A DNA stretch of 64,000 nucleotides from Adineta vaga. Taxonomy: Eukaryota; Animalia; Rotifera. How positions within the stretch are numbered: position 1 is the first letter of the stretch; the number at the start of each line of letters is the position of its first letter. The DNA lies in the NCBI GenBank assembly GCA_021613535.1, contig CP075497.1, positions 8,221,488 to 8,285,487 of the forward strand, in the 5' to 3' direction. Positions 14,184 to 15,037 of the stretch are shown here, one piece after another. The notes below the pieces were generated by a model that saw only the letters and a list, made by a program, of their open reading frames with translations, ran no database searches and had not been told where the DNA came from. The translations under genes and the position numbers were made by a program.

Positions 14184-14255
14184 GGCCTGATGGTCTAGTG
14201 GTATGATTCTCGCTTTGGGTGCGAGAGGTTCCGGTTTCGATCACCGGTCAGGCCC
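14184..14255 (+). tRNA. tRNA-Pro (anticodon UGG), copy 1 of 6
   Basis: The 72-nt gene is GGCCTGATGGTCTAGTGGTATGATTCTCGCTTTGGGTGCGAGAGGTTCCGGTTTCGATCACCGGTCAGGCCC. It forms a canonical cloverleaf: a 7-bp acceptor stem, a D-arm with an AGTGGTAT loop, anticodon stem CTCGC/GCGAG with loop TTTGGGT (anticodon TGG), and a T-arm CCGGT-TTCGATC-ACCGG. It closely resembles vertebrate tRNA-Pro. No CCA is encoded and a T5 Pol III terminator follows immediately. Confidence 0.95.
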
Positions 14256-14329
14256 TTTTTGTTGTTCTTTTGAAAACTCCATTATCTATGTTTCAACTCC
14301 ATTTTTCTTTCCCCATGAACAAGAGGCAT

Positions 14330-14401
14330 GGCCTGATGGTCTAGTGGTATGATTCTCGCTTTGGGTGCGAGAGGTTCCGGTTTCGATCACCGGTCAGGCC
14401 C
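14330..14401 (+). tRNA. tRNA-Pro (anticodon UGG), copy 2 of 6
   Basis: Identical 72-nt sequence to copy 1, followed by a TTTTT terminator. Confidence 0.95.
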
Positions 14402-14501
14402 TTTTTGTTGTTCTCTCATGTCTTTAAACTGTTTCATCCTTTTTAAAACTCCACTAGCTATGATCCAAGTCCGCTTTTCGTTCCCCATGAACAAGAGGCA
14501 T

Positions 14502-14573
14502 GGCCTGATGGTCTAGTGGTATGATTCTCGCTTTGGGTGCGAGAGGTTCCGGTTTCGATCACCGGTCAGGCCC
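14502..14573 (+). tRNA. tRNA-Pro (anticodon UGG), copy 3 of 6
   Basis: Identical 72-nt sequence, followed by a TTTTT terminator. Confidence 0.95.
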
Positions 14574-14647
14574 TTTTTGTTGTTCTTTTGAAAACTCCAT
14601 TAGCTATGATCCAAGTCCGCTTTTCTTTGTCCATGAACAAGAGACAT

Positions 14648-14719
14648 GGCCTGATGGTCTAGTGGTATGATTCTCGCTTTGGGTGCGAGAGGTTCCGGTT
14701 TCGATCACCGGTCAGGCCC
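14648..14719 (+). tRNA. tRNA-Pro (anticodon UGG), copy 4 of 6
   Basis: Identical 72-nt sequence, followed by a TTTTT terminator. Confidence 0.95.
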
Positions 14720-14819
14720 TTTTTATTGTTCTCTCATGTCTTTAAACTGTTTCATCCTTTTTAAAACTCCACTAGCTATGATCCAAGTCCGCTTTTCGTT
14801 CCCCATGAACAAGAGGCAT

Positions 14820-14891
14820 GGCCTGATGGTCTAGTGGTATGATTCTCGCTTTGGGTGCGAGAGGTTCCGGTTTCGATCACCGGTCAGGCCC
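14820..14891 (+). tRNA. tRNA-Pro (anticodon UGG), copy 5 of 6
   Basis: Identical 72-nt sequence, followed by a TTTTT terminator. Confidence 0.95.
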
Positions 14892-14965
14892 TTTTTATTG
14901 TTCTTTTGAAAACTTCATTATCTATCGTCCAAGTCCGCCTTTCTTTATCTATGAACAATAGTCAC

Positions 14966-15037
14966 GGCCTGATGGTCTAGTGGTATGATTCTCGCTTTGG
15001 GTGCGAGAGGTTCCGGTTTCGATCACCGGTCAGGCCC
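14966..15037 (+). tRNA. tRNA-Pro (anticodon UGG), copy 6 of 6
   Basis: Identical 72-nt sequence. The downstream T-run is displaced by a few nucleotides (CCCAATCTTTTTT). Confidence 0.95.

What the first reader, a model, noticed from the sequence alone, without database searches (positions are those of the whole stretch)
14184..15037. Six identical tRNA-Pro(UGG) genes arranged as a 3 x 318-bp higher-order tandem repeat
Gene-to-gene spacing alternates strictly 146 bp and 172 bp with two distinct spacer types, so the duplicated unit is a gene pair rather than a single gene. All six 72-nt genes are identical, and each has its own T-run terminator. The regular higher-order structure implies recent unequal crossing-over or concerted evolution of a dimeric unit. 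The array sits between an RPL35 gene and a GPCR gene. Such arrays can serve as high-output Pol III loci, as insulators, or as sources of tRNA-derived small RNAs.
Basis: seen in the sequence. Interest (0 to 1): 0.55.

Follow-up and report, generated by a model that had tools for sequence, protein, structure and literature searches.

The report
Small tandem array of proline tRNA genes
Six identical proline-tRNA genes sit head to tail beside a ribosomal-protein gene in a bdelloid rotifer genome; they are a local amplification of a gene that is single-copy in related rotifers, which is an ordinary kind of gene-family growth.

Summary
ARAGORN and Rfam both call six tRNA-Pro(UGG) genes on the + strand at 14184, 14330, 14502, 14648, 14820 and 14966. 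All six 72-nt genes are identical. Spacing is 146/172/146/172/146 bp, and each gene is followed by a run of at least five T.

The two "spacer types" are one spacer with or without an identical 26-nt insert.

The host is a bdelloid rotifer not represented in the protein collection. In related bdelloid contigs the same tRNA lies at the same place, convergent with RPL35 and next to the same GPCR. Copy number there is 0, 1, 2 (in one contig the second copy is a pseudogene) or 3. The window therefore holds the largest known expansion of a conserved locus.

Within the array, 19 of 74 spacer columns vary and 0 of 72 gene columns do (p = 1e-6). This points to constraint on every copy.

The two long spacers differ at 1 site and the short ones at 9-15 sites. 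The history is therefore mosaic, not a clean triplication of a dimer.

CCA makes up 58% of proline codons in the window's long ORFs, which fits a gene-dosage role. That role, and any insulator or small-RNA role, is untested.

This is a new member of a well-known kind, of low interest.

The parts
14184..14255 (+). tRNA-Pro(UGG) gene, copy 1. It keeps the ancestral 5' flank ...ATTTTAATTAACAT.
   Evidence: ARAGORN and Rfam at 53 bits. The 5' flank aligns with the 5' flanks of L024 and L023.
14330..14401 (+). tRNA-Pro(UGG) gene, copy 2
   Evidence: identical to copy 1
14502..14573 (+). tRNA-Pro(UGG) gene, copy 3
14648..14719 (+). tRNA-Pro(UGG) gene, copy 4
14820..14891 (+). tRNA-Pro(UGG) gene, copy 5
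14966..15037 (+). tRNA-Pro(UGG) gene, copy 6, nearest RPL35. It keeps the ancestral 3' flank AATCTTTTTT.
   Evidence: The 3' flank resembles that of the single-copy orthologues (AATTCTCTCTTTTT in L001, AATTTAATTCTTTTTTT in the L009 group).
14256..14329 (+). Short spacer 1 (74 nt). It starts with the T5 terminator of copy 1.
14402..14501 (+). Long spacer 2 (100 nt). It is the short spacer plus a 26-nt insert at about 14415-14440, and starts with T5.
14574..14647 (+). Short spacer 3 (74 nt). It is a mosaic: its middle matches the long spacers.
   Evidence: 6-7 differences from spacers 2 and 4, 9 from spacer 1, 11 from spacer 5
14720..14819 (+). Long spacer 4 (100 nt), with the 26-nt insert at about 14733-14758. 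It differs from spacer 2 at one site.
14892..14965 (+). Short spacer 5 (74 nt). It is the most divergent spacer in the window and the one most like the single spacer of the two-copy relatives.
   Evidence: 11-15 differences from the others; 0.77-0.80 identity to the L024 and L023 spacers, above all 300 shuffles
15042..15047 (+). T6 run, the terminator of copy 6
   Evidence: read directly
15303..15738 (-). RPL35 (uL29) gene, convergent with the array. Exon 1 is 15738-15696, the 61-nt intron is 15695-15635, and exon 2 is 15634-15303. AATAAA signals lie on the - strand at 15206 and 15060.
11091..12315 (-). Rhodopsin-type GPCR gene (three exon-like ORFs), the neighbour on the other side of the array
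   Evidence: 7tm_1, E = 7e-8. It is syntenic in L001, L021, L023, L024, L026 and L027.

Best explanation
The feature is six independent nuclear tRNA-Pro(UGG) genes of a bdelloid rotifer, each transcribed by RNA polymerase III. Each gene has an internal A box and B box and its own T-run terminator.

The array arose by repeated local tandem duplication (unequal exchange or repair slippage). The starting point was a tRNA-Pro gene that already lay just downstream of RPL35, convergent with it, in the ancestor of this rotifer subclade.

The 26-nt indel marks one spacer lineage. Later exchanges at a 318-bp offset produced the short/long alternation.

Every copy is kept intact by purifying selection. 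The most likely benefit is a higher supply of the tRNA that reads CCA, the commonest proline codon in this AT-rich genome.

Shown here: gene identity, array anatomy, synteny, copy-number differences between lineages, and constraint on the genes. Inferred: transcription of all six copies and the dosage benefit.
For: 1. Two independent tools call six full-length tRNA-Pro(UGG) genes.
2. The cloverleaf has 7/3/5/5 standard pairs plus the U-U that closes the D stem, and the discriminator base is C.
3. A T5 or T6 run follows every copy.
4. The same tRNA, differing only at loop positions 15 and 46, lies convergent with RPL35, 155-282 bp past the stop codon, and next to the same GPCR in related bdelloid contigs:
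   - 1 copy in L001, L016, L017 and L025, and one copy seen in L009-L013, L018 and L022, whose contigs end 17-357 bp beyond it;
   - 2 copies in L024 and L023;
   - 3 copies in L021;
   - 0 copies in Rotaria and in L007, L008 and L028.
5. The 5' flank of copy 1, the 3' flank of copy 6 and the spacers are recognisably homologous to those of L024 and L023.
6. Within the array 19 of 74 spacer columns vary and 0 of 72 gene columns do (Fisher p = 1e-6). Between species the gene differs at 2 of 72 sites while the flanks are barely alignable.
7. A decayed second copy in L023 shows what an unconstrained copy looks like.
8. All 7 exact matches to this tRNA in the metagenome scan map to this one locus. 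The locus may therefore be the main home of this tRNA.
9. CCA is 58% and CCG 7% of 207 proline codons in 18 long ORFs.
Against: - No expression, Pol III or TFIIIC data exist for this genome.
- The B box departs from the consensus at the conserved 53:61 pair, which is U:A instead of G:C. This might weaken TFIIIC binding.
- Relatives manage with one copy at this locus, so six may not be needed.
- Clustered tRNA-Pro genes in Arabidopsis are silenced (PMC7544208), so clustering does not guarantee output.
- The genome-wide tRNA-Pro complement of this species is unknown.
- Gene identity could partly reflect gene conversion rather than selection.
Confidence: 0.7

Rival explanations
1. The array is neutral copy-number turnover. 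It is a by-product of an unstable, duplication-prone site. The extra copies bring no benefit and may be transcriptionally silent, as clustered tRNA genes are in Arabidopsis.
For: Copy number at this site ranges from 0 to 6 among relatives, and one extra copy has decayed in L023. The neighbouring GPCR is also tandemly multiplied in L001 and L026. tRNA clusters are described as dynamic, unstable regions (PMC2888827). The Arabidopsis Pro clusters are silenced (PMC7544208).
Against: The spacers have diverged by about 13% on average with 19 of 74 variable columns, yet no gene has a single change. Copies drifting neutrally for that long should have accumulated roughly 18 variable gene positions.
Confidence: 0.2
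2. The array acts mainly as a chromatin boundary (tDNA insulator) between the highly expressed RPL35 gene and the GPCR gene. TFIIIC-bound copies would block read-through or the spread of chromatin states.
For: The position between two Pol II genes, convergent with RPL35, is conserved in relatives. The RPL35 poly(A) signals lie 23-169 bp from the array. A human tRNA tandem repeat has been implicated as a boundary element (PMC4041453).
Against: Several relatives, including Rotaria, have no tRNA at this site, and one copy suffices in others. Nothing in the sequence distinguishes an insulator from ordinary tRNA genes. There are no functional data.
Confidence: 0.07
3. The six-copy structure is an assembly artefact: mis-expansion or mis-joining of a shorter repeat.
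For: Metagenome assemblies of relatives break or mis-join at this repeat. The 275-kb scaffold behind L030 ends inside a second copy. L029 looks like a chimera joined at the tRNA.
Against: Every spacer in the window carries its own substitutions, so the copies are distinguishable rather than collapsed duplicates. Independent assemblies of relatives contain 2 and 3 copies.
Confidence: 0.03

Closest known systems
Arabidopsis thaliana tRNA-Cys(GCA) mini-cluster on chromosome 5 (PMC10701932)
   Same: Both are small homogeneous arrays of a few same-sense tRNA genes in short repeat units (0.4 kb there, 146/172 bp here). In both, the number of repeat units varies between related genomes and a pseudogene copy occurs (there in the cluster itself, here in relative L023).
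   Different: That cluster is in a plant, its tRNA sequences vary within the cluster, and it carries Helitron marks. Here all six genes are identical and no transposon features were seen.
Arabidopsis thaliana tRNA-Pro clusters of 24, 6 and 9 copies (PMC7544208)
   Same: Both are tandem clusters of proline tRNA genes located close to or within protein-coding genes. One of the Arabidopsis clusters also has six copies.
   Different: Those clusters are shown to be epigenetically silenced extra copies beside dispersed expressed genes. Here the expression state is unknown, and this locus may be the main source of this tRNA.
Homogeneous tRNA gene clusters of eukaryotes in general, as surveyed in PMC2888827
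   Same: The survey reports that most clusters are small, that adjacent pairs usually have parallel orientation, that turnover is rapid and lineage-specific, and that local duplication is the suspected cause. All of these apply here.
   Different: tRNA synteny is described as generally poor. Here the founder gene has kept its position beside RPL35 across several bdelloid lineages.
Human tRNA variable-number tandem repeat at 1q23.3 (PMC4041453)
   Same: Both are tandemly repeated units that contain tRNA genes and show copy-number variation. A boundary role has been proposed for the human repeat.
   Different: The human unit is 7.3 kb, GC-rich, binds CTCF and occurs 9-43 times per allele. The unit here is 146-318 bp, AT-rich outside the genes, and present as six genes.

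Membership tests
Eukaryotic nuclear tRNA gene (type 2 Pol III promoter) | Cloverleaf sequence and structure scoring above a curated threshold | tested here: met
   Rfam RF00005 gives 53 bits against a gathering score of 29 for each copy. ARAGORN calls all six. The explicit cloverleaf has 7/3/5/5 standard pairs and an energy of -25.4 kcal/mol.
Eukaryotic nuclear tRNA gene (type 2 Pol III promoter) | Proline identity: anticodon UGG with G35 and G36 | tested here: met
   The anticodon is tgg at position 33 and the discriminator base is C. tRNAscan-SE isotype models were not available.
Eukaryotic nuclear tRNA gene (type 2 Pol III promoter) | Internal A box (about TRGCNNAGTGG) and B box (about GGTTCGANTCC) | tested here: inconclusive
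   The A box TGGTCTAGTGG has one departure from the consensus. The B box GTTTCGATCAC keeps T54, T55, C56 and A58 but has U53:A61 where the Rfam consensus shows conserved G and C. The box consensus sequences are from my own knowledge. The effect on TFIIIC binding is unknown.
Eukaryotic nuclear tRNA gene (type 2 Pol III promoter) | Run of at least 4-5 T just downstream as the Pol III terminator | tested here: met
   T5 starts at +1 after copies 1-5, and T6 at +5 after copy 6.
Eukaryotic nuclear tRNA gene (type 2 Pol III promoter) | Transcribed and processed to a mature, aminoacylated tRNA | not testable with these tools
   No RNA or ChIP data are available. The only indirect evidence is sequence constraint: 0 of 72 variable gene columns against 19 of 74 in the spacers, and 2 of 72 differences between species.
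Higher-order (dimeric) tandem repeat | Periodicity at the multi-monomer length | tested here: met
   The TRF period-318 row scores 1574, against 464-598 for the 146 and 172 periods. The 26-nt insert recurs at a 318-bp offset.
Higher-order (dimeric) tandem repeat | Equivalent monomers of different units are much more alike than neighbouring monomers within a unit | tested here: inconclusive
   This holds for the long spacers, which differ at 1 site. It does not hold for the short spacers, which differ at 9-15 sites. That is as many as, or more than, most short-versus-long comparisons, which differ at 6-15 sites.
tRNA-derived SINE or retroposed tRNA copy | tRNA-like head joined to an unrelated body and tail, with dispersed copies at non-syntenic sites | tested here: not met
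   The units are complete 72-nt tRNAs only. There are no further copies or fragments elsewhere in the 64 kb. All matches in relatives lie at the same syntenic locus.
tDNA insulator or boundary element | TFIIIC-dependent barrier or enhancer-blocking activity | not testable with these tools
   Only the position between two Pol II genes is known.

The most novel reading that the evidence does not exclude
In this bdelloid subclade the site next to RPL35 may be the sole or principal genomic source of tRNA-Pro(UGG), a tRNA with an unusual U53:A61 T-stem pair. Its copy number (0 to 6 among lineages) would then be tuned by selection on CCA decoding. The array would also be a tractable example of concerted evolution through unequal sister-chromatid exchange or double-strand-break repair in animals that lack conventional meiosis.
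Probability: 0.15. Interest if true: 0.4.

Novelty: new member of a known kind. Interest (0 to 1): 0.2.

Why it matters
The practical value is mainly for annotation: six real tRNA-Pro(UGG) genes should be recorded at this locus. Short-read assemblies of related rotifers break or mis-join here, which is a useful warning for anyone assembling them.

Biologically, the locus gives a small, clean series (0, 1, 2, 2 with a pseudogene, 3 and 6 copies at one syntenic site). It illustrates the birth, homogenisation and death of tRNA genes in bdelloid rotifers. It does not challenge anything known about tRNA gene clusters.

Tried and rejected
- Exact look-ups of 11 window ORFs in the 15-billion-protein collection found nothing. 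The array therefore could not be compared across assemblies or haplotypes of the same species.
- Single GPCR exons gave no Pfam hit. Only the concatenated exons did.
- Thermodynamic folding alone does not return the cloverleaf: the MFE is -29.4 kcal/mol against -25.4 for the cloverleaf. This is usual for unmodified tRNA sequences and was not taken as evidence against the gene.
- L029 first looked like a one-copy allele of the three-copy L021/L030 haplotype. It is 100% identical to them on one side of the tRNA and 97% identical to L009 on the other side, so I treat it as a probable chimeric join.
- Homology between the window's spacers and those of L021 is only marginal: 0.66-0.72 identity against a shuffle maximum of 0.72. 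I therefore do not claim that the multi-copy state predates the split between the window lineage and L021.
- A simple model in which spacer 3 is a chimera of spacers 5 and 1, produced by one unequal crossover, did not fit the substitution pattern (read).
- The SINE and assembly-artefact readings were considered and rejected (see the membership test and the rival explanations).
- Literature searches for tRNA gene arrays in bdelloids found nothing specific.

Full report
**Observation**

ARAGORN finds exactly six tRNA genes in the 64-kb window. All are tRNA-Pro with anticodon TGG, all are on the + strand, and they lie at 14184-14255, 14330-14401, 14502-14573, 14648-14719, 14820-14891 and 14966-15037. 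Rfam's tRNA model RF00005 independently reports the same six intervals at 53 bits each, against a gathering score of 29.

The six 72-nt sequences are identical, and start-to-start distances are 146, 172, 146, 172 and 146 bp. Tandem Repeats Finder gives its best description at period 318, with 2.7 copies, 96% matches and score 1574. This is the only strong tandem repeat in the window.

Copies 1-5 are followed immediately by TTTTT. Copy 6 is followed by AATCTTTTTT. A sensitive BLAST of the gene and of the 318-bp unit finds no further copies or fragments elsewhere in the window. tRNAscan-SE itself could not be run.

**Anatomy of the gene**

The covariance-model alignment and an explicit cloverleaf were examined. 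They show:
- a 7-bp acceptor stem;
- a D stem of three standard pairs plus a U-U;
- a 5-bp anticodon stem with the loop UUUGGGU;
- a 5-nt variable loop and a 5-bp T stem;
- a discriminator base C.

The A-box region is TGGTCTAGTGG. The B-box region is GTTTCGATCAC. It keeps T54, T55, C56 and A58, but the pair that closes the T loop is U:A, where the Rfam consensus shows conserved G and C. Pairing is preserved, and the same U:A pair is present in every orthologue found. It is therefore a lineage feature and not a sign of decay. Free-energy folding alone prefers a non-cloverleaf fold by 4 kcal/mol. That is common for tRNA sequences, and I do not weigh it.

**Anatomy of the array**

The short (74-nt) and long (100-nt) spacers are not two unrelated types. 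The long one is the short one plus a 26-nt insert, CTCATGTCTTTAAACTGTTTCATCCT, identical in both long spacers.

With the insert removed, the five spacers differ as follows:
- the two long spacers differ at 1 site;
- the three short spacers differ from each other at 9, 11 and 15 sites;
- the middle short spacer is closer to the long spacers (6-7 differences) than to the other short ones;
- the spacer next to copy 6 is the most divergent (11-15 differences).

Individual sites show different groupings along the array. For example, position 6 reads G, G, G, A, A across spacers 1 to 5. The 318-bp periodicity is real, and at least one exchange at a 318-bp offset must have copied the insert-bearing spacer. 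The substitutions, however, describe a mosaic shaped by several exchange or conversion events. They do not describe a clean, recent triplication of a dimer.

**Surroundings and host**

RPL35 (uL29) lies on the - strand. Exon 1 is 15738-15696, a 61-nt GT-AG intron follows, and exon 2 is 15634-15303, giving 124 aa. The gene is convergent with the tRNAs, its stop codon is 266 bp from copy 6, and AATAAA signals lie at 15206 and 15060.

On the other side of the array, at about 11091-12315 on the - strand, lies a rhodopsin-type GPCR. Its concatenated exons match 7tm_1 with E = 7e-8.

The RPL35 exon is 85-87% identical to the orthologous Rotaria proteins (58% to a Rotaria sordida entry) and 77-80% to Didymodactylos proteins. 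It is 91-92% identical to unnamed metagenome proteins and at most 66% identical to other animals. An NDH2 exon gives the same picture. The window is 30.6% G+C. The host is therefore a bdelloid rotifer. None of 11 window ORFs is present verbatim in the protein collection, so the species itself is not represented there.

**Comparison with relatives**

I fetched contigs that encode the closest RPL35 proteins, and I scanned the metagenome collection for the tRNA itself. The same tRNA-Pro(UGG) occupies the same place in several related bdelloids: convergent with RPL35, 155-282 bp beyond its stop codon, with the GPCR on the far side.

Copy number at the site differs between contigs:
- None in five Rotaria sp. 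Silwood2 and two R. magnacalcarata assemblies, or in L007, L008 and L028.
- One in L001, L016, L017 and L025, which carry at least 744 bp beyond the gene. One is also seen in L009-L013, L018 and L022, whose contigs end 17-357 bp beyond it, so further copies cannot be excluded there.
- Two in L024.
- Two in L023, where the second copy has nine substitutions that break the acceptor stem and is a pseudogene.
- Three in L021, with a period of about 156 bp.

The orthologous genes differ from the window's gene only at position 15 in the D loop (G versus A) and position 46 in the variable loop (T versus C). The flanks are barely alignable.

Three pieces of the window's array match L024 and L023:
- The 5' flank of copy 1 (...ATTTTAATTAACAT) matches the 5' flanks of L024 and L023 (...ATTTAATTAACGT).
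- The sequence after copy 6 shares TTCAAT(T/C)AAATGAA with L024.
- The window's spacers are more similar to the L024 and L023 spacers than any of 300 shuffles.

The spacer next to copy 6 is the one most like the relatives' spacer. This fits array edges that are older and an interior that has been homogenised. Similarity to the L021 spacers is only marginal. I therefore leave open whether the L021 expansion is independent.

All seven exact matches from the unbiased DNA scan fall at this one locus. This hints that the site is the main home of this tRNA sequence in these genomes.

**Constraint**

Nineteen of 74 aligned spacer columns vary among the five spacers, and none of the 72 gene columns varies among the six genes (Fisher p = 1e-6). 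At the spacers' level of divergence, unconstrained genes would show about 18 variable positions. The decayed copy in L023 shows that extra copies can and do degenerate. The simplest reading is purifying selection on each of the six copies. Gene conversion may also contribute.

**How it most likely works**

Each unit is an autonomous Pol III gene with internal promoter elements and its own terminator. That is established knowledge for eukaryotic tRNA genes, and the sequence requirements were checked here, apart from the atypical 53:61 pair.

The array grew by unequal exchange or slipped repair from a founder gene beside RPL35. tRNA gene number generally tracks tRNA supply and codon usage; this is my own knowledge and was not tested here. 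In 18 long ORFs of the window, CCA is 58% and CCG 7% of 207 proline codons. The amplified tRNA therefore reads the dominant proline codon. I favour a dosage role (confidence about 0.5 for this step). I am confident (about 0.9) that these are genuine tRNA genes produced by local duplication of a syntenic founder.

**Rivals**

- Neutral copy-number turnover with silent extra copies is the main rival. It is encouraged by the silenced Pro clusters of Arabidopsis (PMC7544208) and by the general instability of tRNA clusters (PMC2888827). The complete lack of change in any gene copy argues against long neutral drift.
- An insulator role between RPL35 and the GPCR cannot be tested. It is weakened by relatives that lack any tRNA at this site.
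- An assembly artefact is unlikely because every spacer is individually marked by substitutions. Short-read assemblies of relatives do break or mis-join here.
- A SINE origin is excluded by the full-length, syntenic, non-dispersed copies.

**Comparison with what is known**

Small homogeneous, same-orientation tRNA gene clusters generated by local duplication are common in eukaryotes (PMC2888827). The closest described parallels are two Arabidopsis cases:
- the tRNA-Cys mini-cluster, with four genes in 0.4-kb units, unit-number variation between accessions and a pseudogene (PMC10701932);
- the tRNA-Pro clusters of 24, 6 and 9 copies (PMC7544208).

I found no paper describing tRNA arrays in bdelloids.

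**Verdict**

This is a new member of a known kind. Interest is low (0.2). The modest points of interest are the conserved founder position beside RPL35, the copy-number series across lineages, and the unusual U53:A61 pair.

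Noticed in passing
window 14235 and 14243 in copy 1 (same offsets in all six copies); also L001, L009-L018, L021-L027: The pair closing the T loop (canonical 53:61) is U:A, where the Rfam tRNA consensus has conserved G and C. The change keeps the pairing and is present in every orthologue. Whether all bdelloid tRNA-Pro genes share it, and whether it affects TFIIIC binding, is unknown.
   Followed up: partly
L023 102-173 (- strand): The second tRNA-Pro copy of a two-copy array has nine substitutions, including breaks in the acceptor stem, and folds no better than shuffles (z = 0.3). 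It is a decaying duplicate at the same locus.
   Followed up: yes
L030 (end of a 275-kb scaffold) and L029 (tRNA on the - strand at 6525-6596): The L030 scaffold ends inside a second tRNA copy. L029 is 100% identical to L021/L030 on the RPL35 side of the tRNA and 97% identical to L009 on the other side, so it is probably a chimeric assembly joined at the repeat.
   Followed up: yes
L001 about 11005-16489; L026 about 3280-8450; window 11091-12315: The GPCR next to the tRNA locus is tandemly multiplied in relatives (three copies in L001, at least four in L026) but is single in the window. The whole neighbourhood seems prone to tandem duplication.
   Followed up: partly
window 1306-2013 (- strand): This exon encodes a type-II (alternative, non-electrogenic) NADH:ubiquinone reductase. 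The best hits are bdelloid proteins at 73-80% identity. Most of the remaining hits, at about 42-48% identity, are unnamed, and the few that are named are plant proteins. Its origin was not examined.
   Followed up: no
window 23040-23792 (+); L017 1534-2187: An ORF resembling an ADP-ribosyltransferase (ADPrib_exo_Tox / ART) lies in the window. In relative L017 an ART-family gene sits directly beside the tRNA.
   Followed up: no
window 27060-28259, 49558-59573, 60741-61862, 62556-63293: Other genes in the window are a Rad4/XPC-like gene, a large multi-exon cadherin gene with a Y-type LIR tail, an MFS/sugar transporter and an HSP20 small heat-shock protein.
   Followed up: no
window 15652-15676: A (TAAA)6 microsatellite lies inside the 61-nt intron of RPL35.
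   Followed up: no
window 14150-14183 versus the last ~20 nt of each spacer: There are two classes of 5' leader. Copy 1 has the AT-rich TTTTAATTAACAT, shared with the first copies in L024 and L023. Copies 2-6 have (A/C)AA(G/T)AG(G/A/T)CA(T/C), similar to AATAGTCAT and GAATGTCAT upstream of the downstream copies in L024 and L021, and of the single copy in L001. Nearly all end in CAT just before +1. This could affect start-site choice or expression.
   Followed up: partly
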